Positions 5,013 to 63,835 of a stretch of DNA of 64,000 nt are shown one piece after another. The DNA comes from Eledone cirrhosa. Taxonomy: Eukaryota. The notes below the pieces were generated by a model. The model had not been told where the DNA came from and did no database searches. It saw only the letters and a list, made by a program, of their open reading frames with translations. The stretch is taken from NCBI GenBank assembly GCA_964016885.1, contig CAXHJY010000244.1, positions 1-64,000 of the forward strand, read 5' to 3'. The position numbers and the translations under genes are program-made. The first letter of the stretch is position 1. The number at the start of each line of letters is the position of its first letter.

Positions 5013-5141
5013 CGAAGGAATTGTGGTAAGGAACCAGATGGACCATAACGCACCAAAGTGCTCAATACTTAAGGTAGTAGAGTGGGTAATAGGAACAAGT
5101 ATGACCCGACGGCAGAGCTCAAGCCGTTTCAACGCTATTTC
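5011..5141 (-). mobile_element. Single arm of the 46067-46589 family of (TA)n-associated elements; retains the 3' half of a hammerhead
   Basis: Matches 46390-46520 (gaagga..tggtaaggaaccagatggaccataacgcaccaaagt..cgacggcagagctcaagccgtttc); abuts (TA)n. Confidence 0.8.
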
Positions 5142-5157
5142 TACTTCTATTATTATT

Positions 5158-8441: not shown

Positions 8442-8670
8442 ATTATAATTATGTAATAAACAACATAAGAAAATTATTCCATTTACCAAAGGTTTCACGA
8501 AAACAGATGAGCTGGACACAGACGTCTGACTTCGGTCGTCAGAATGAAATTTCATTTAAAATGGAAGTGAGATATGAATTTCACTCTCTTTTCCTTTACC
8601 TTTCCTACGGAAACACTTCATATTATATTATATATATATAATGTGCGTATTATATTATATATATATATAA

Positions 8671-14466: not shown

Positions 14467-14800
14467 AAGTGAGGTTTTTTTTTACAAAATGAAAAATAAC
14501 CGAGGTGTCCTACACGAGTGAAAGTATAAAGAAAAAAAAGATGAAATCGAAAATGCAACTGGAGTCTTATTTTTAAAAATATATATATATATTTTTGGTT
14601 CCTTTACCGGTTTCGCAGTTCTTCTGCTTTTCAAAAGTAGAGTTGAGATGGAGGGTCTGTGGTTTTTCTCACTTGTGAGAAAAACCACAGACCCTCCATT
14701 TCAGAAGAACAGGGAAACCGGTAAAGGAACCAAAGAAATATATATATATTTTTTTAAATAAGACTCCAGTTGCATTTTCGATTTCATCTTTTTTTCTTTA
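14467..14800. mobile_element. Fold-back element, family P (also 53636-53920, 63472-63835, fragment 63042-63071)
   Basis: Palindrome centred on tctcacttgtgaga; flanked by (TA)n; carries a U3-A8 hammerhead on the minus strand at 14602-14637. Confidence 0.85.
14602..14637 (-). ncRNA. Minimal hammerhead, U3-A8 core variant
   Basis: ctt-TTGAAAA-GCAG aagaa CTGC-GAA-ACCGGT-A-aag. Confidence 0.62.
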
Positions 14801-14821
14801 TATATATATATATATATATAT

Positions 14822-15263
14822 AGCGGCGATGAATTAGTTTTGCGAGGTTTTTTATATGAAATCGTGTGTCGAAACAGATATTGTTATATTTGGGGAGGGT
14901 CATATTTGCGTAATATTGCCAGAATTAATAACAGAACACACTCACTGTTTGGTTGAGACAGACTGAACAAAAAAATGGCGTAGACATACAACACAACAGG
15001 AGGAACAATGAATATAACACCACTGACGATGTTGCAGATGTGCAACGAAAGATTTATGTAAACTATATATATATGTGTTTGTCTATATTGTATCTGTATT
15101 ATTTTTGACCGCCGGTCAGTCAATGGCAACATTGAGGACCGAGTAAGTTAGATCGCAGATATATATATATAAAAGACAGCGAGAAGCGAAAACCAACCAA
15201 ACAGTGAGTGTGTTCTGTTATTAATTCTGGCAATATTACGCAAATATGACCCTCCCCAAATAT

Positions 15264-15270
<7 letters not shown>
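14822..15270. mobile_element. Element with about 75-bp inverted arms and an internal hammerhead core; arm copies at 46629-46678 and 56225-56316
   Basis: 14878-14955 inverted against 15201-15270; internal CTGACGA-t-GTTGCA gatg TGCAAC-GAAA at 15023-15050. Confidence 0.75.
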
Positions 15271-15300
<30 letters not shown>

Positions 15301-20890: not shown

Positions 20891-21062
20891 ATTTATACTT
20901 CGATGAGTCCAGCCTTGTGTTTTGATGAAACGATCGTTAGAATTAAATGTTCTTAAACACTCTTTGATTGTTATTTATTAAGTATTTCGGCTCTGTATTT
21001 ACTTGTTATTTTACATTGAGCTATTCTCACAATTGTAATTGGATAATATCTAATATTGCCCG

Positions 21063-21143
<81 letters not shown>

Positions 21144-21207
21144 GCGGGTAATATTAGATATTATCCAATTACAAGTGTGAGAATAGCTCAATGTAAAATA
21201 ACAAGTT
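20891..21207. mobile_element. Two tail-to-tail element ends facing one (TA)n run, with a decayed hammerhead
   Basis: 21000-21066 inverted against 21141-21207 around (TA)n; tcgatga-gtc..gat-GAA-ACGATCGT-T at 20900-20938; homologous to the 5854 element. Confidence 0.7.
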
Positions 21208-22519: not shown

Positions 22520-23276
22520 ATATGTTGAGAAGGCAACACACCAGAGAGAGATATATAGTGTGTTATCAATAATACAGGAAAAAAAACCACCAGTGTATGG
22601 AATCTATAACCTATGAAAGGCAGACTATAGACACGATAATTAAAAATATAAATTAAAGCGTAAATAAATACCTCTATAACTATATAACACACGTACAAAT
22701 CCAAAGATATGTTTCACCAAAAAATTTGTTGAAAGAAATGGTCTAGTCTCGGTTCATCAGCGTGTGTAAGGCCATACATTTCAGACAACACTAAGAGAAT
22801 TTTACAATTGACTGTCCAGCTACACGTGGGAGAGAGAAGTCACAGCGTGTTTAAGGGCAGTGAACCAGTGGCCTCTGAGAGACGAACTGCTAGAAAGGGC
22901 AGTCCAAAGCCACTCAGAGAAGTGTGCTCAACCAAACAGAGATAGGAAAGACTGTTATTAGGAGCGAAATATCACGATAAATTAACGGAGGCATAGGCCG
23001 TCGTTATTCCCTGTAAATAATGTGCTCAAAGGGGAAGAGATCCTGAGCCCTTTAAAATATAATATGTTGAGAAGGCAACACACCAGAGAGAGATATATAG
23101 GTTAAAGATTCCATACACTGGTGGTTTTTTTCCCTGTATTATTGATAACACACTATATATCTCTCTCTGGTGTGTTGCCTTCTCAACATATTATATTTTA
23201 AAGGGCTCAGGATCTCTTCCCCTTTCAGCACATTATTTACAGGGAATAACGACGGCCTATGCCTCCGTTAATTTAT

Positions 23277-23283
<7 letters not shown>
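22515..23283 (-). mobile_element. Hammerhead-bearing unit with 542-nt periodicity plus an inverted copy of its end
   Basis: 22515-22558 is repeated at 23057-23100; 23101-23283 is an inverted copy spanning the junction; (TA)n on both sides. Confidence 0.82.
22687..22767 (-). ncRNA. Type I hammerhead ribozyme motif
   Basis: ACACACG-CTGATGA-accgaga..ttttggt-GAA-acatatc tttg gatttgt-A-CGTGTGT: perfect 7-bp stem I, GUA site. Confidence 0.82.
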
Positions 23284-23322
<39 letters not shown>

Positions 23323-23577: not shown

Positions 23578-24170
23578 TGGTGGCTGCCAACTAGTTTTCG
23601 AGTACGGCCACTACTTTATATCCATGTAGGAGAACCCCTACCGATGCGCTGAACGAGTGTGACTTTTTAGTCCAGCCAGCGACTTGAAAACTCTGGTACA
23701 AACACTACACTTGTGACAATTATTGACACATAGTGCTGGGCCCATGGTACCATGTGACGACAAGTGCAGAGAGATCTCCAGATATAAAGCAATGCCTGTG
23801 CCGTGAAGCTTTTATAGTGAGCAAAGGCACTGCACAAAGCCAGTCCCACTCTCTTCACCAAGATGATATTTACCAAAAAGAAGAACAAGTCAACATCATT
23901 GGATACCATCAGGGTTGCAGGTGTTATATCAGAGTTTTCCTTCTCCTAGACAAAGGCTAAGGGGTCATCTCTCCCGGTGATTTTGGATGGCCATTGACTC
24001 TGAAGAGCTCCTTTGCCCTTTGACAGGTTTTGTTTTTAGTCCTGCAGGATGTCCAAAGTCACCCTCCTCACCAAGAAAACTTGGTGGGGTTGCCAGTTTA
24101 GTCGCCAACGACCCGACCATGGGACAGGTTGTACTGGGATACATGTTACCAGTAACACCAACTGGTGACC
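23578..24170 (-). mobile_element. About 590-bp interspersed repeat, possibly RTE-dependent and non-autonomous; inverted copy at 47754-48346
   Basis: Highly similar reverse-complement copies; ends at (TA)n/(TGTA)n; related fragments at 48410-48475 and 48615-48676. Confidence 0.8.
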
Positions 24171-25773: not shown

Positions 25774-25935
25774 AATATATATATATATAAATATGTATAT
25801 ATAAAAATATATAAATATGAAAAAAAAAATATCAAAAACAACCAACTCATCAATGTCTTACCATTTGATTTCCACCAATCAGTATCCATTATTTTACTGG
25901 CCTTGTGTCATAAGCAGAAACATTTTCACTATTAG

Positions 25936-26468
25936 AATAGAGTTATGGCCCTTTACGTTCTGAGTTCAAATCCCACCGAGGTTAACTTTGCCTTTCATTC
26001 TTGCGGGGTCGATAAAATAAAGTACCAGTAATAGACTGGGGTATTTGCTGGCCTTGTGCCTAAAGTAGGAACAATTATTATAATCTAATCGAAACATTTG
26101 TCACCATCAAAGTAACTAATCATAATAATAATAGTTTCTACGTTAGGCACAAGGCCAACAAATACCCCAGTACATTACTGGTACTTTATTTTACCGACCC
26201 CGTAAGGATGAAAGGCAAAGTTAACCTCGGCGGGATTTGTACTCAGAACGTAAAGGGCCATAACTCTATGCTAATAGTAATAATTGTTTCTACTTTTGGC
26301 ACAAGGACAGAAATTACCCCAGTACATAACTGGTACTTTATTTTATCGACCCCGTAAGGATGAAAGGCAAAGTTAACCTTGGCGGGATTTGAACTCAGAA
26401 TGGCAAGGGCCGTAACTCTATGCGTCAAAGCATGGCGTCCGACCCTCTACCGATACTGCCAATCCACC
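25936..26468. mobile_element. Cluster of three SINE family A copies (+ 25936-26080; - 26133-26270; - 26281-26468)
   Basis: Conserved body in both orientations, tail-to-tail. Confidence 0.87.
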
Positions 26469-30392: not shown

Positions 30393-30502
30393 TGAGAAAA
30401 TTCAACATTTATACCCGAATAGTGAGAACATGGGAAAACGAGAAAATTCTATTACGTTTTCCCATGTTCTCACTATTAGGGTATAAATGTTGAGTTTTCT
30501 CA
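30393..30502. repeat. About 110-bp fold-back at the 5' end of the hammerhead element
   Basis: tgagaaaattcaacatttatacccgaatagtgagaacatgggaaaacg and its near-perfect reverse complement, 14-nt loop. Confidence 0.88.
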
Positions 30503-43540: not shown

Positions 43541-43549
43541 TGTTAAGTA

Positions 43550-43746
43550 ATAATTCCGAAGAAAAAGCAAAGGAAAAAAAGAGTGCTCTATGTATAAAAC
43601 AGAGCTATTTAATCAGAAAGTAAACAACACAAAATATAACTAATCCATTACCAAAGGTTTCAGGACACAGACATGTGTCAATATTGTCTGTGTCCTGAAA
43701 CGTTTGGTAATGTAGTAGTTATATATGGTGTTGTTTACTTTCTCAA
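43550..43746. mobile_element. Fold-back copy of the 46720 hammerhead family, inverted at stem II
   Basis: ccattaccaaaggtttcaggacacagaca-tgtgtcaatat-tgtctgtgtcctgaaacgtttggtaatg. Confidence 0.78.
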
Positions 43747-43762
43747 TATATATATATGTGTG

Positions 43763-43845
<83 letters not shown>

Positions 43846-43846
43846 G

Positions 43847-43897
<51 letters not shown>

Positions 43898-43922
43898 GTA
43901 TATATATATATGTATATATATG

Positions 43923-43991
<69 letters not shown>

Positions 43992-44032
43992 GTATATATA
44001 TATGTATATATATATATGTATATATATATATG

Positions 44033-44115
<83 letters not shown>

Positions 44116-44122
44116 GTATATG

Positions 44123-44180
<58 letters not shown>

Positions 44181-44226
44181 CATGATACATACATACATAG
44201 ATACATATATATATATATATATATAT

Positions 44227-44447
44227 GACAGTCGATTGACTTTCGTCAAATCGGACCGAGGAAACAATGTTTCCATTGGTCTTTCCAATTGCTAATACTA
44301 TCTATCGGTCGCAACTCCAGGTAGAAGGAGCAACGTGAAATAAAATGTCTTGCCCAAGGACATAACACATCGCCCGGTCCAGGAATCGAACTCACAACCT
44401 CATGATTGAGAGCTCAATTCTCTTACCACTCAGCCACGCGCCTTCAC
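44227..44447 (-). mobile_element. tRNA-derived CORE-type SINE; partial + copy at 61885-62014
   Basis: Minus strand: gtggctgagtggtaagag (A box), gagttcgattcc (B box), tccttgggcaagacattt (CORE-like). Confidence 0.82.
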
Positions 44448-44504
44448 TATATATATACATATCACTACATATATATACATACCTAAATATCACTACATAT
44501 ATAC

Positions 44505-44551
<47 letters not shown>

Positions 44552-45594
44552 AGCTATGTAGCTATGTATGTATGTATCATATATATATATGTATTATGTT
44601 TATTTTTATATATGTAGTGATATGGATGCGTGTATTTATGTATGTATGTACGTATGTGTTCTCTCTCCCTCTATCTCTCTTAATTTTGGGTTTATTTTTG
44701 ACCGGCCACCTTCCCGGTGGCAAGGTTGTTAAAAAAACAAACAGAAATTTTCGCTGTTCTATTTGCAATTGTTCTTCATTTGAATTGTAAGAATGTTTTG
44801 CAGATTTCGAAGATTCCAGATATCGCGGCCATTTGTAGATCTTCGATAAAGTAGCTACGTTCTCTCGCCATAAATTCAGTCATACATTAGTTCAGATGAG
44901 CTGGTATATATCCCGTAGGCCCAATAATAATTGTTTCTATTTTGGGGCACAAGGCCAGCAATAACAACAACAATAGCTGCAATCGTTGTCAGTGAGTGCA
45001 GTAACCCAACATCAAAGGAATAAAAATAAAAAAAGGAATGAAGGCAACATTGAGAAGATAGTGCACTGGACGTTATGAGAGACAAAACAGACAAACAAAA
45101 AAAGACGACAAAAGCAGAGACGAAGAGAAAAATGGTACAGACGCCGACCCTGACCTTATGTCTGAGTCACCTGACGTGAAGGTGGCGTGGGACTTGAACG
45201 TTCAATTTAATCACGATATACATGAAAGAAGATATTGTTATTACTGGGGAGAAAGAGAGAAATAAAGGAAAAGTCTTTAATTTAATTGGTCGATCGTTGG
45301 AGACAAAGGAAATGGATTTCACGGCCGTTTGAGATTGAGATGCTAAATAGAGTCTGTAACAAAGACAAAAAGGAGCGCTTATAATTAATAGAGAAAAGGC
45401 ATTGTCTGATGAGATAATTAATGTTAGCAACACCTGAGGGATAGAAGAGAGACAGAGAGAGGGGGAGAAAGAGAGGGAGAGGGGTAAAAAGAGAGAGAGA
45501 GAGGGGTAAAGAGAGGGAGAGGGGTAAAAAGAGAGAGAGAGAGAGAGAGGGGTAAAAAGAGAGAGAGGGGGGAGTTGGAGAGTGGGTTGAAGTC

Positions 45595-45848
45595 ATACTA
45601 GTTGTAGTAGTAGTAGTGCGTGGCCCATCTCTGTTGCTGCTGCTGCTACTGCTACTACTACTACTACTGCTGCTGCTATTGCTACTACTACTACTAATGC
45701 TGCTGCTTCTACTACTACTAATACTGCTATTACTGCTGCTGCTGCTACTACTACTACTACTACTACTGCTACTACTATTAATACTAGTAATACTAATACT
45801 ACTACTACTACTACCACTACTATTACTACTACTACTACAACTACTACT
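45595..45848. repeat. (CTA/CTG)n tract
   Basis: Direct inspection. Confidence 0.9.
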
Positions 45849-46022
45849 GAAGAATGATATCCGAAACGTTACGACTCTCTCATTACCACAGCAGAGATCC
45901 GACGAGCTTTTGTTTCCAGAGTTGGGCCAGATCGATACAGATCGAACTTTGAGCTGATCAATAGCGAAACGCGCGTCACTACTCAATAAACGTAATGAAG
46001 GCATAACAATTCGTCCTTTTAC

Positions 46023-46066
<44 letters not shown>

Positions 46067-46069
<3 letters not shown>

Positions 46070-46348
46070 AAAATGTTTGACCCCGATGGCAGAGCTCAAG
46101 CCGTTTCGACGGGTATTTCTGGACTTAGAAATAGCCGTCGAAACGGCTTGAGCTCTGCCGTCGGGGTCAAACATTTTCCTATTACCCACTCTACTACCCT
46201 AAGTATTGAGTACTCTGGTGCGTTATGGTCCATCTGGTTCCTTACCAGTCTTCCTTCATTATATATATATATATCGATATATGTTCGATTAGATATATAT
46301 ATATCAATATATGTTCGATTAGATATATATATATCGATATATATTCGA

Positions 46349-46392
<44 letters not shown>

Positions 46393-46585
46393 GAAGGAGG
46401 TGTGGTAAGGAACCAGATGGACCATAACGCACCAAAGTACTCAATACTTAGGGTAGTAGAGTGGGTAATAGGAACGAGTAGGACGCCGACGGCTGAGCTC
46501 AAGCCGTTTCGACGGCTAATTCTGGACTAAAAAAAAAAAAAAAAAAAAAAACGGCTTGAGCTCAGCCGTCGGGGTCCTACTCGTT

Positions 46586-46589
<4 letters not shown>
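46067..46589. mobile_element. Two tail-to-tail fold-back elements around a (TA)n-rich spacer, each retaining hammerhead stem II, GAAA, stem III and GUC
   Basis: Palindrome 46067-46180 centred on ggactt; arms 46176-46260 and 46390-46474 inverted; second palindrome 46470-46589. Confidence 0.82.
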
Positions 46590-46630
<41 letters not shown>

Positions 46631-46674: not shown

Positions 46675-46720
<46 letters not shown>

Positions 46721-46788
46721 TTCCAACCTCACTTTCAATTTTAATAGATTTTCAATCTCATTTCCTATTTTTATATATTTCATAACAT

Positions 46789-46856
46789 CTCTATCTGATG
46801 AGCGAACTAGACATATGTTAATATTGTCTGGGATCCTGAAACCTTTGGTAATGGAG
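46789..46856 (+). ncRNA. Type I hammerhead ribozyme motif (host element about 46720-46921)
   Basis: ctctat-CTGATGA-[hairpin agaca..tgtct]-GAA-acc ttt ggt-A-atggag; base of stem II is decayed. Confidence 0.68.
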
Positions 46857-47107
46857 TAGTTATATATTGTATTGTTCACTTTCTAATTAAATAGCTCTGT
46901 TTTATACATAGAGCACTCTTTGTGTGTGTGTGTTTGTGTGTATAAGTGCGTGTGTGAATAAGTGTGCGTGTTTGTGTGTATAAGTGCGTGTGTGAATAAG
47001 TGTGCGTGTGTGTGTGTGTGTGTATACGAACCCCAAACAAGTTTAATGAATTAACATCAATAGAGGTCAACAGCTTACAAAAAAAAAATGACCACAAGGG
47101 GGAGTTG

Positions 47108-47753: not shown

Positions 47754-48346
47754 GGTCACCAGTTGGTGCTACTGGTTACATGTATCCCAGTACAACCTGT
47801 CTAATGGTCGGGTCGTTGGCGACTAAACTGGCAACCCCACCAAGGTTTCTTGGTGAGGAGGGTGACTTTGCACATCTTGCAGGACTAAAAACAAAACCTG
47901 TCAAAGGGAAAAGGAGCTCTTGAGAGTCAATGGCCATCCAAAAGCACCGGGAGAGATGACCCCTTAGCCTTTGTCTAGGAGAAGGAAAACTCTGATATAA
48001 CACCTGCAACCCTGATGGTATCCAATGATGTTGACTTGTTCTTCTTTTTGGTAAATATCATCTTGGTGAAGAGAGTGGGACTGGCTTTGTGCAGTGCCTT
48101 TGCTCACTATAAAAGCTTCACGGCGCAGGCATTGCTTTATATCTGGAGATCTCTCTGCACTTGTCATCACATGATACCATGGGCCCAGCACTATGTGTCA
48201 ATAATTGTCACAAGTGTAGTGTTTGTACCAGAGTTTTCAAGACGCTGGCTGGACTAAAAAATCACACTCGTTCAGCGCATCGGTAGGGGTTCTCCTACAT
48301 GGATATAAAGTAGTGGCTGTACTCGAAAACGAGTTGACAGCCACCA
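47754..48346 (+). mobile_element. Second copy of the 590-bp repeat at 23578-24170
   Basis: Highly similar reverse complement. Confidence 0.8.
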
Positions 48347-49187: not shown

Positions 49188-49510
<323 letters not shown>

Positions 49511-49566
49511 AACGTAACTCCCTACCCTCACCCCCACCGAAACAAAACAAACGAAAGCTGAAGTTG

Positions 49567-50799
49567 ATGATGACAAAGATGATGATGATGGAAAGCAATC
49601 AGACCCCTACTTTTGAAAGTGTTTTCGGTTGTCAAACGTTTGATTACACTTTTGAAAATATATCCTTGGGCAATTTATCGAACTCACATCTCGATGCAGA
49701 GAACTGTTTGCTCGATACGGTGCAAATGGATGTCGGAGATAAGATCTACGCTTTCTCAACGCCAGTGATTTTCGCCATGGGTATACTAGGTAATTCTGTA
49801 TCACTAAAGATATTCTTGTCGAAAAACTTCCGGCGTCAAGCTGGTGGTGTGTATTTAGCGTCGCTGTCTTGTGCGGACATTTTCGCCTTAGTTTTCTACG
49901 TGATGACGGAATGGCTGAAAAAAATACCTCTCTTTTTAATGTCCAGTCGTAAGATACCGGTCTTGGATACAGAAGGAATGTGCCAAATGATACAGTTTCT
50001 ATCGTACACCTTCCGTTTTCTCTCTTCTTGGTTGGTCGTTATATTCACAGTCGAAAGATACATTGGAGTGTGTCATCCCTTTAAAAGACTTGAATGGTGC
50101 ACGACAAAGACGGCACGGAGGAGTATAGGGGGACTGGTTATAGTTTCGCTGGCCATTAACTCTTATAAGCCGGCCCTAACTAAAGTGTATCGGCTTCACG
50201 GAGGTTTAACGAAGTGTACTGGAAATTTGGAATACAGATATCTTTCGTTTATTTTGGACAGTGTATACGCAGTCTCTATTACTTTCGTTCCGTTTGTGTT
50301 TATATTCCTGCTGAATATTCTAATTATTCGTGCTTTAGTACGGCTAAAACGAAGACAAAAGACCAACCAAGTAAAAGCAAAGGAAGCAGTCGGTAGGACA
50401 GACTTTACATTGTTATTGCTGATGATATCTTTCTGTTTCATAGCCTTCAAACTTCCGTTTTTTGTTACTTGGTGCCAACAGTTCTTCTTTTCCATAAAAC
50501 TAGAGGGGAGTGACTTAGACGAAATCAACGACCACAACAGACTTTTAGTGATGAAAAAAGCTCTCAACATATCCAGAATTATATTCTACATGAGCTACGT
50601 AACAAATTTCTTTCTCTACAGTTTCGTTGGCTCTTCTTTCCGTCTTGAACTTAAGCGACTGTTGTCCTGTCGCCACAAGAGAGCTCGCACCAATACTTGG
50701 ACTCCACAACGAACATATTTGCGCTCCGATATCAGCCATGTTGAATCTTTTCACCGCAACACTTCTGCTGCTAAGAACCAGAGTATAGATGAGGTCTGA
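49567..50799 (+). CDS. Intronless class A (rhodopsin-like) GPCR, probably a neuropeptide receptor of the FMRFamide/sex-peptide-receptor-related group
   Basis: About 410 aa; seven hydrophobic segments; TM1 GILGN, TM2 LSCAD, TM3 Cys and ERY..VCHP, TM5 Pro, TM6 F..FKLP, TM7 NFFLY; N-terminal N-glycosylation sequons NIS and NLS. First ATG at 49567; ligand assignment is inference. Confidence 0.93.
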   Translation: MMTKMMMMESNQTPTFESVFGCQTFDYTFENISLGNLSNSHLDAENCLLDTVQMDVGDKIYAFSTPVIFAMGILGNSVSLKIFLSKNFRRQAGGVYLASLSCADIFALVFYVMTEWLKKIPLFLMSSRKIPVLDTEGMCQMIQFLSYTFRFLSSWLVVIFTVERYIGVCHPFKRLEWCTTKTARRSIGGLVIVSLAINSYKPALTKVYRLHGGLTKCTGNLEYRYLSFILDSVYAVSITFVPFVFIFLLNILIIRALVRLKRRQKTNQVKAKEAVGRTDFTLLLLMISFCFIAFKLPFFVTWCQQFFFSIKLEGSDLDEINDHNRLLVMKKALNISRIIFYMSYVTNFFLYSFVGSSFRLELKRLLSCRHKRARTNTWTPQRTYLRSDISHVESFHRNTSAAKNQSIDEV

Positions 50800-59888: not shown

Positions 59889-60030
59889 TGAAATTATTAG
59901 AAATGTAAGCTATCGCCGTATTTTGACTAAAGAAATTAAAGAAATTATTTAGCCTGATAGTGGGGTTATAATAATTTCTTTAATTTCTTTAGTCAAAATA
60001 CGGTGATAGCTTACATTTCTAATAATTTCA
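59889..60030. repeat. About 140-bp fold-back island between (TA)n arrays
   Basis: tgaaattattagaaatgtaagctatcgccgtattttgactaaagaaattaaagaaattatt and its reverse complement. Confidence 0.88.
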
Positions 60031-62518: not shown

Positions 62519-62521
<3 letters not shown>

Positions 62522-62952
62522 ACAGGGAGAAATAGACGATTATTAGGAAGAAACATTTCTTTTTTTTCCTTTTTTGTCTCTCTCTCTCTCTTTTCTGGGT
62601 TAGAAAATGATTAAAACGAAATGTTGTACTTTGTATGAAGTGTTAAAGTATTAGTTTATTTATTTATTATTTAACAATGGCATTTATTTATCTATTTATC
62701 TATTTATATATTTATCTATTTATATATTTATATATTAATTTATAGACAATAATTAAATATATAAATAGATAAATAGATAAATAAATGCCATTGTTAAATA
62801 ATAAATAAATCAACTAATACCTTAACACATCACACAAAGTAAAATATTTCGTTTTAATCATTTTCTAACCCAGAAAAACGAGAGAGAGAAACAAAAAAGG
62901 AAAAAAAGATATTTTTATTCTTCCTAATAATCGTCTATTTCTCCCTGTTTTT
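62519..62952. mobile_element. About 430-bp fold-back element between (TA)n runs
   Basis: About 190-bp arms (aaaacagggagaaatagacgattattaggaagaa... / ...ttcttcctaataatcgtctatttctccctgtttt). Confidence 0.85.
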
Positions 62953-63471: not shown

Positions 63472-63835
63472 TTAGAAAGTGAGGTTTTTTTACAAAATGA
63501 AAAATAACCGAGGTGTCCTACACGAATGAAAGTATAAAGAAAAAAAGATGAAATCGAAAATGCAACTGGAGTCTTATTTTTTTTTTAAATATATATATTT
63601 ATTTGGTTCCTTTACCGGTTTCGCAGTTCTTCTGCTTTTCAAAAGTAGAGTTGAGGTGGAGGGTCTGTGGTTTTTCTCACATCTGATGTGAGAAAAACCA
63701 CAGACCCTCCATCTCAACTCTACTTTTGAAAAGCAGAAGAACTGCGAAACCGGTAAAGGAACCAAATAAATATATATATATTTTTTTTAAATAAGACTGC
63801 AGTTGCATTTTCGATATCATCTTTTTTTCTTTATA
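63472..63835. mobile_element. Fold-back element family P, most complete copy, with two divergent U3-A8 hammerheads (63610-63645 -, 63723-63758 +)
   Basis: About 150-bp near-perfect arms centred on tctcacatctgatgtgaga. Confidence 0.88.

What the first reader, a model, noticed from the sequence alone, without database searches (positions are those of the whole stretch)
43550..46589. Inversion points fall exactly in the hammerhead stem II loop
Seen: in two unrelated families (43550-43746; 46067-46180 and 46470-46589) the palindrome centre is the stem II hairpin. GAAA, stem III and the NUH site are mirrored, while the CUGAUGA half is lost. The uninverted form of the first family is visible at 46789-46856. 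Inference: nascent cDNA snaps back on the pre-existing hairpin and self-primes. This offers a mechanism for Penelope-type inverted ends and would also disable the ribozyme in the insert.
Basis: partly seen in the sequence, partly recalled or inferred. Interest (0 to 1): 0.7.

Follow-up and report, generated by a model that had tools for sequence, protein, structure and literature searches.

The report
Penelope-type mirror insertions, not snap-back
These three mirror-image repeats are real, short copies of likely Penelope-type jumping elements in a layout already described, and their lopsided arms and read-mapped junctions fit poorly with folding back on the ribozyme hairpin and likely record copying started from both ends of one DNA cut, a step still unproven for these elements.

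Summary
The three palindromes are real (z -14 to -20), lack CUGAUGA, and abut (TA)n. Only locus A (43545-43743) can be checked against an uninverted hammerhead (46789-46856): its junction lies in the stem II helix with the loop kept whole. For 46065-46590 no uninverted ribozyme was seen, so 'stem II' there is inferred. Simple cDNA snap-back fails on geometry in 2 of 3 loci: the supposed copy arm runs 70-78 nt beyond the arm it should have copied. Reads and contigs show head-to-head joints, some in raw reads of several samples. Family 1: 0 of 12 shown joints lie within stem II; 10 of 12 keep CUGAUGA. Family 2: one end always sits at 46518-46531, the other varies, 6 of 12 just inside the inner 3' end. 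Best reading: Penelope-like inverted pLTR with one-sided tail, made by twin priming from two fixed start sites, cDNAs joined near a family-specific 5' boundary. Layout and a self-priming hypothesis are published (PMC3846280). This scan noted the same pattern before on other DNA (e1-9525717, e1-9091577, e1-9879788). No genome was held, so counts are small and biased against symmetric junctions.

The parts
43545..43673 (-). Locus A long arm (family 1): stem II 3' strand, GAAA, stem III, predicted cut site, runs to the outer 3' end; 43545-43614 is the 70-nt one-sided tail
   Evidence: tail resembles the family's loose-end consensus behind 46919-46920
43669..43743 (+). Locus A short arm: carries the stem II apex (43674-43684) in template orientation, GAAA 43697-43700, ends in (TA)n near the inner 3' end
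   Evidence: 9 of 11 spacer letters match 46814-46824; 5 mismatches in 59 nt between arms; 35 contigs run into TA behind 46893
46065..46126 (-). Locus B1 short arm (family 2), ends at the inner 3' end in (TA)n; carries the spacer in template orientation
   Evidence: orientation from joints at 46525-46531
46127..46260 (+). Locus B1 long arm: GAAA 46140-43, stem III with palindromic loop 46143-46161, GUC predicted cut site, 78-nt tail 46183-46260
   Evidence: 2 mismatches in 56 nt between arms
46390..46528 (-). Locus B2 long arm (family 2, a different sequence variant from B1), with tail 46390-46467; carries the spacer in template orientation
   Evidence: two TA-abutting 3' ends at 46394/46400 and 46468 in reads
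46529..46551 (+). 23-nt A run replacing the start of the B2 short arm; real poly(A) or a base-calling error after the hairpin, not resolved
   Evidence: depth falls to near zero beyond 46532
46552..46590 (+). Locus B2 short arm, ends at the inner 3' end in (TA)n
   Evidence: 1 mismatch in 42 nt to the long arm
46789..46856 (+). Uninverted family 1 type I hammerhead-like motif (cleavage not tested; no Rfam match)
   Evidence: descriptor match; Rfam negative; stem II hairpin weak in this copy (z -1.7)
46776..46795 (+). Family 1 5' boundary zone: where read depth starts and where one end of 10 of 12 shown head-to-head joints falls
46518..46531 (-). Family 2 5' boundary zone: one end of 12 of 12 shown head-to-head joints
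46468..46475 (-). Family 2 inner 3' end (46468) and the cluster of partner ends just inside it (46471-46475, 6 of 12)
5016..5143 (-). Third family 2 copy, single arm with tail, 5' end abutting a SINE-like repeat

Best explanation
These are short, non-coding, head-to-head insertions in (TA)n, likely of Penelope-like elements, that were likely made by twin priming: both 3' ends of one cut would be extended on the element RNA from two fixed start sites about 70 nt apart, and the two cDNAs would then be joined head to head. Shown: two fixed 3' ends, one tailed and one tail-less arm per insert, a family-specific fixed 5' boundary for one arm, a variable truncation of the other. Inferred: the element's enzyme cuts (TA)n; the inner-site cDNA usually runs to the 5' boundary (just before the ribozyme core in family 1, at the hairpin apex before GAAA in family 2; probably the RNA's 5' end or a strong stop); the outer-site cDNA often stops where it meets the inner primer and otherwise runs on by displacement or on a second RNA. 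When both cDNAs get near the boundary the insert is a near-perfect palindrome; an RNA hairpin can supply the overlap for the join, as at locus A. Loss of CUGAUGA is a by-product of where the arms stop, not a rule.
For: Arm geometry at A and B1 excludes a self-copy. Two TA-abutting 3' ends in family 2 reads: 46394/46400-01 and 46468 (3,512 and 3,069 reads at 46468 in X21, X22); 35 contigs run into TA behind 46893 in family 1. Family 2 joints: 12 of 12 shown opposite-strand joints have one end at 46518-46531 (crude P 2e-7), partner ends 46429-46491, 6 of 12 at 46471-46475 (crude P 2e-4; 0.03 when counted as 3 of 9 distinct positions). Family 1: one end at 46782-46795 in 10 of 12; the joint listed as 46836/46889 and the loose end before 46889 put a partner end 4 nt inside the inner 3' end. 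In-window parallels: tail-only inverted arm at the 8542 copy, tailed inverted arm at 22969-23284, and a third family (14525-14802, 63533-63835) with the same centre and one-sided tail but no hammerhead half at the centre. Biochemistry: a Penelope-like protein cuts and extends both DNA strands and starts at two internal RNA sites that match the tail (PMC11167929, parts 1-2 of 4 read).
Against: Two family 2 rows end at 46518, an AATT site where RAD reads end; without them the counts are 10 of 10 and 5 of 10. The 46474 cluster coincides with a place where sequence variants diverge from the reference (loose ends behind 46474), so part of it could be an alignment edge. For the family 1 joints seen only in contigs, head-to-head orientation is assumed from the raw-read joints and the depth step. 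B2 fits snap-back as well. Overlap at family 1 joints is no greater than chance (mean 0.75 against 0.73, measured on a diverged reference). No target-site duplication can be read in (TA)n, no RNA data, no parent element with a reverse transcriptase was found (10 of 149 frames scanned).
Confidence: 0.65

Rival explanations
1. One reading: the nascent cDNA folds back on the stem II hairpin and primes on itself; arm asymmetries that do not fit arose later by flipping of the spacer or loss of one end.
For: Locus A junction lies in the stem II helix with the loop kept; B2 has the expected polarity; family 2 fixed end is at a hairpin apex; snap-back is seen in R2 insertions (PMC11371274, PMC11331408, passages read); symmetric joints are under-reported by the read tool.
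Against: Second arm is 70 and 78 nt longer than its supposed template at A and B1, and the short arms end at the family's preferred inner end rather than at random; 0 of 12 family 1 joints in stem II (expected share 10% under a uniform model, P 0.28, so no enrichment); family 2 partner ends lie 27-93 nt from the hairpin.
Confidence: 0.13
2. Self-priming on an antisense RNA, as proposed in PMC3846280: the antisense transcript folds at its 3' end and is extended, so the spacer-bearing arm can be the short one.
For: Would fit the polarity at A and B1; published hypothesis from palindromes at inverted junctions in rotifer elements (passages read).
Against: Does not explain B2 polarity, two fixed 3' ends in (TA)n, or partner ends clustering at the inner 3' end; the in vitro system extends both DNA strands on a sense RNA.
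Confidence: 0.1
3. DNA-level fold-back after insertion: a break in the (TA)n-flanked copy was resected, self-annealed at the hairpin and extended.
For: (TA)n tracts and hairpins are plentiful; self-annealing at L1-induced breaks gives inverted duplications (bioRxiv 10.1101/2024.12.14.628481, passages read).
Against: Would copy flanking DNA and give random arm ends; observed arms end at two family-fixed sites.
Confidence: 0.05
4. Assembly or sequencing fold-back artefact.
For: The A run at 46529-46551 follows a hairpin and is not matched by reads; none of the three loci was spanned by a listed read or contig.
Against: Arms differ by 5 of 59, 2 of 56 and 1 of 42 letters and by one-sided tails; the joint 46794/46850 stands in raw reads of three samples (58, 70, 50 reads) and several family 2 joints stand in both contigs and raw reads.
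Confidence: 0.04

Closest known systems
Insertions of endonuclease-bearing Penelope-like elements: inverted 5'-truncated pLTR with one-sided tail (PMC3846280, passages; PMC8557442, passages and one supplement search)
   Same: Head-to-head inverted copy, tail at one end only, (TA)n target, small palindrome at the inverted junction, hammerhead in the terminal repeat.
   Different: Inserts here are only 120-200 nt with no coding part; the tail is 70-78 nt against 30-40 in print; junctions are mapped onto ribozyme landmarks, which the passages I read do not do.
Poseidon element of Anolis in vitro (PMC11167929, parts 1-2 of 4 read)
   Same: Both strands cut and extended, AT-rich target, two internal start sites that define the tail, ribozyme cleavage not needed for insertion.
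   Different: That work does not address inverted junctions in the parts read; the start sites are closer together.
Twin priming of L1 (Ostertag and Kazazian 2001, seen only as cited in bioRxiv 10.1101/2024.12.14.628481; model details recalled)
   Same: Two cDNAs from the two ends of one cut, joined in inverted orientation, breakpoint near the inner primer.
   Different: In L1 the inner primer site is variable and arms do not overlap (recalled); here it is a fixed family site and arms often overlap into palindromes.
cDNA snap-back junctions of R2 (PMC11371274, PMC11331408, passages read)
   Different: A minor junction class in R2; it cannot make the copy longer than the first cDNA, as seen at A and B1.
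Animal non-LTR retrozymes and Penelope hammerheads (PMC4209133, parts 1-2 of 4 read; bioRxiv 10.64898/2026.07.22.740005, part 1 of 5 and passages)
   Same: Non-coding, type I hammerhead, short or palindromic stem III loop, dispersed monomers.
   Different: The three loci are sub-monomer inverted stubs, not tandem arrays; no circular RNA shown.

Membership tests
Endonuclease-bearing Penelope-like element insertion | Inverted 5'-truncated copy joined head to head | tested here: met
   joints
Endonuclease-bearing Penelope-like element insertion | One-sided 3' tail (two fixed 3' ends) | tested here: met
   70 and 78 nt tails; two TA-abutting ends in reads; longer than the 30-40 nt in PMC8557442
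Endonuclease-bearing Penelope-like element insertion | (TA)n target preference | tested here: met
   all six arm ends abut TA-rich repeats; loose ends are TA runs
Endonuclease-bearing Penelope-like element insertion | Telomerase-like reverse transcriptase and GIY-YIG frame linked to the repeat | tested here: inconclusive
   none at these loci; 10 of 149 frames scanned with Pfam gave only a receptor gene; no genome held; motifs not found in the one supplement held for PMC8557442
Endonuclease-bearing Penelope-like element insertion | Target-site duplication | not testable with these tools
   flanks are (TA)n
Type I hammerhead ribozyme, family 1 (46789-46856) | CUGANGA, GAAA, NUH with stems I-III | tested here: met
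   descriptor match: stem I 6 bp, stem III 3 bp; base of stem II imperfect in this copy; related full core at 8542-
Type I hammerhead ribozyme, family 1 (46789-46856) | Rfam hammerhead model match | tested here: not met
   0 matches at gathering score; no hammerhead among 3 weak hits on 46720-46921
Type I hammerhead ribozyme, family 1 (46789-46856) | Self-cleavage | not testable with these tools
   needs in vitro transcription
Type I hammerhead ribozyme, family 2 (46065-46590) | GAAA, stem III, NUH | tested here: met
   46140-46162: 5-bp stem III, palindromic loop, GUC
Type I hammerhead ribozyme, family 2 (46065-46590) | CUGANGA upstream of stem II in an uninverted copy | tested here: inconclusive
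   absent from three window copies and from the listed 30-letter loose ends behind 46518, 46521 and 46531 (666 rows not shown); a longer stem II would hide it
Non-LTR retrozyme | Tandem units each with a full hammerhead | tested here: not met
   no tandem unit at the three loci
cDNA snap-back product | Copy arm no longer than the spacer-bearing arm | tested here: not met
   fails at A and B1, met at B2

The most novel reading that the evidence does not exclude
Penelope-like elements integrate by programmed twin priming on one RNA: two fixed start sites, the outer cDNA halting at the inner primer, and ribozyme landmarks (base of stem II, cleavage site, hairpin apex) acting as stop or joining points, so that the genomic junction spectrum reads out RNA structure and cleavage state in the germ line. 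Partner ends in family 1 at 46837-46838 (3 of 12) and 46848-46853 (4 of 12, two probably one locus) hint at this but are too few to test.
Probability: 0.35. Interest if true: 0.7.

Novelty: new member of a known kind. Interest (0 to 1): 0.42.

Why it matters
How Penelope-like elements make inverted ends and one-sided tails is named as unsolved in PMC8557442, and the published explanation is self-priming (PMC3846280). These short, very abundant inserts give a simple discriminating test (which arm carries the spacer, and where the partner arm stops relative to the inner start site) that can be run on one genome and in the existing in vitro system. The elements and their layout are ordinary, and this scan has reached the same reading on other DNA.

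Tried and rejected
No whole genome was held, so the genome-wide breakpoint map could not be made. Exact-pattern scans for family 2 found 0 matches in metagenome contigs, viral contigs and prokaryote genomes. Rfam gave no hammerhead: 0 hits at gathering score; the 150 of 1,030 weak hits shown were microRNA models matching hairpins and TA repeats; 3 unrelated weak hits. Whole-window inverted-repeat search was swamped by (TA)n. Sequence look-ups in earlier scan notes found nothing. Four family motifs were absent from the one supplementary file held for PMC8557442; its sequence files were not held and may bear on clade identity; supplements of the bioRxiv preprints are closed. Mass read ends at 46885/46888, 46521 and probably 46531 fall on or beside AATT and were rejected as restriction-library ends. 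Excess microhomology at family 1 joints was tested and not found. Three skip-type joints in each were left out of the counts. Searches for twin priming or self-priming applied to Penelope junctions (listings only, except the papers named) found only PMC3846280's self-priming proposal; subscription papers are not covered.

Full report
Setting. The window is animal DNA, two thirds simple repeat after masking (66%), with SINE-like repeats and an intronless 7-transmembrane receptor frame at 49189-50799. Earlier scan notes call the genome octopus-like; I did not test that. No whole genome was held, so family-wide evidence comes from two read-laying runs.

Observation. The three fold-backs are real features of the window: z -14.3, -20.1 and -15.9 against 200 shuffles each. 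None holds CTGANGA on either strand. A full type I hammerhead-like motif of family 1 lies at 46789-46856; Rfam does not score it. At locus A the 11-nt spacer matches the native stem II apex in 9 of 11 letters on the + strand and 2 of 11 flipped, so the junction is in the helix and the loop is kept, on the right arm. Variant tables suggest the family's usual stem II is a longer helix than in the 46.8 kb copy, so the exact switch point within the 5' strand cannot be fixed. For family 2 (B1 46065-46260, B2 46390-46590, third copy 5016-5143) GAAA, a 5-bp stem III with a palindromic loop and a GUC site are present, but no CUGAUGA half was seen in the window or in the listed loose ends (24 rows shown, 666 not). 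The listed loose ends do suggest a pre-existing hairpin at that place, with weak agreement (0.58-0.72). In B2 a 23-nt A run replaces the start of one arm.

Geometry. Every palindrome has a longer arm: 70 nt extra at A, 78 nt at B1 and about the same at B2. Reads show these are two fixed 3' ends. In family 2, TA runs abut 46394/46400-01 and 46468; in family 1, 35 contigs run into TA behind 46893 while others continue past 46920. Under cDNA snap-back the arm with the spacer in template orientation is made first and the other arm is its copy, so the copy cannot be longer (inference). At A the spacer-bearing arm is the short one. For family 2 the template orientation follows from asymmetric joints: 8 of 12 have an end at 46525 or beyond and 6 of 12 at 46527 or beyond while the partner lies far away, so those letters come from the template and not from a local mirror. 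By that orientation B1's spacer-bearing arm is the short one and B2's the long one. Snap-back thus fails at 2 of 3 loci unless spacers were flipped later. B1 and B2 are different sequence variants and in each the two arms share the variant (2 of 56 and 1 of 42 mismatches within, 12 of 144 between long arms), so each insert's arms came from one source.

Family 1 joints (X18 contigs, X21-X23 raw restriction-library reads of three other samples). 18 joints were found, 15 shown, 12 of them on opposite strands. One end lies at 46782-46795 in 10 of 12, so that arm keeps CUGAUGA; the other lies at 46825-46889. None has both ends in stem II and none has an end in the loop. Under a uniform model 10% would fall in stem II (P of 0 in 12 is 0.28), so this shows no enrichment, not depletion. 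The joint 46794/46850 stands in 58, 70 and 50 raw reads with 32 or more letters on each side where upstream depth is about 6, which fixes it as head to head; it joins the start of the core to the predicted cleavage site. Loose ends before 46783 and 46889 are inverted copies of a full core from diverged variants. Partner ends at 46837-46838 (3) and 46848-46853 (4) coincide with the base of stem II and the cleavage site; too few to test. Overlap at the joints equals chance on this reference (0.75 against 0.73).

Family 2 joints (X18, X20 contigs of one sample, X21, X22 raw reads). The family is abundant (23,219 of 12.5 million records laid in X21). 30 joints were found, 15 shown, 12 on opposite strands; all 12 must be head to head because the reference has too few letters beyond 46531 for the other reading. 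One end is at 46518-46531 in 12 of 12 (46522-46528 in 9), the other at 46429-46491; 6 of 12 are at 46471-46475, just inside the inner 3' end, and 5 lie within the tail. Crude probabilities are 2e-7 and 2e-4, or 0.03 for 3 of 9 distinct positions.

In-window controls. Of four two-armed inserts where a full core is available for comparison, one (A) is joined in stem II; the others keep the core, with junctions about 40, 340 and 130 nt upstream (8542-, 22760-, 30318-). At 8542 the inverted arm is only the tail. A further family has two palindromes (14525-14802, 63533-63835) with centres within 5 nt of each other, a one-sided tail and no hammerhead half at the centre. The layout therefore does not need stem II.

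Mechanism. The simplest account is twin priming from two fixed start sites, with one cDNA running to a family-specific 5' boundary, the other stopping variably and often at the inner primer, and an end-joining step. The ends and junction positions are shown; cutting, priming, the nature of the boundary and the joining are inferred. My reading recorded before the first look-up was hairpin-guided joining of Penelope-type ends; the two-ended priming and 'RNA starts there' wordings are also in earlier scan notes, which are unchecked AI notes and not independent support. The geometry and joint counts above are my own tests.

Literature. PMC3846280 (passages) describes inverted pLTRs, a one-sided tail and palindromes at the inverted junction, and proposes self-priming, on an antisense template. 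PMC8557442 (passages; one supplement searched) repeats the layout, gives (TA)n targeting and calls the mechanism open. PMC4209133 (parts 1-2 of 4) describes the hammerheads. PMC11167929 (parts 1-2 of 4) shows both strands cut and extended, two start sites equal to the tail, and cleavage dispensable. PMC11371274 and PMC11331408 (passages) document snap-back for R2. bioRxiv 10.1101/2024.12.14.628481 (passages) supports twin priming for L1. bioRxiv 10.64898/2026.07.22.740005 (part 1 of 5 and passages) links retrozymes to Penelope elements and has no passage on inverted junctions under the terms searched. Searches listed no paper applying twin priming to Penelope junctions; the library lacks most subscription papers.

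Verdict. Observation partly confirmed; interpretation partly supported. New members of a known kind of insertion. Interest 0.42.

Noticed in passing
window 14525-14802 and 63533-63835: Two palindromes of one further family, centres within 5 nt of each other, one-sided tail of about 65 nt, in (TA)n, no hammerhead half at the centre; the 14.6 kb copy has a 19-nt deletion in one arm.
   Followed up: partly
window 22520-23284: Non-coding unit of about 542 nt, slightly more than one unit long, with a full hammerhead core at 22760 (- strand) and a tailed inverted arm; retrozyme-like.
   Followed up: partly
window 6043+, 6186+, 6414-, 8542-, 23430+, 30318-, 45847+, 61182+, 61676+: Further hammerhead-like cores of several families, some minimal with a palindromic stem III; Rfam scores none at gathering level.
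   Followed up: partly
window 46127-46260 and 46390-46528; 21001-21206: B1 and B2 face each other tail to tail across about 130 nt of TA-rich repeat; a similar tail-to-tail pair flanks a TA run at 21.1 kb. Probably repeated use of one target.
   Followed up: no
window 46188-46211: ACTC...GAGT bulged stem begins 6 nt after the inner 3' end of family 2, as earlier scan notes describe for other families (e1-8671399).
   Followed up: partly
window 46529-46551: 23-nt A run directly after the B2 hairpin apex, unmatched by reads; possible base-calling error or untemplated addition.
   Followed up: partly
window 14878-15271, 30393-30502, 59900-60019, 62519-62951: Other head-to-head repeats beside (TA)n; the 14.9 kb one has 78-nt identical arms around a 240-nt spacer.
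   Followed up: no
window 25894-26313: Two copies of the common SINE-like repeat in inverted orientation forming a 420-nt fold-back.
   Followed up: no
window 49189-50799 +: Intronless 536-codon frame with a rhodopsin-family 7-transmembrane match (PF00001, E 9.5e-21).
   Followed up: no
window 23580-24170 and 47754-48344: 591-nt inverted dispersed duplicate at 97% identity, not identified.
   Followed up: no
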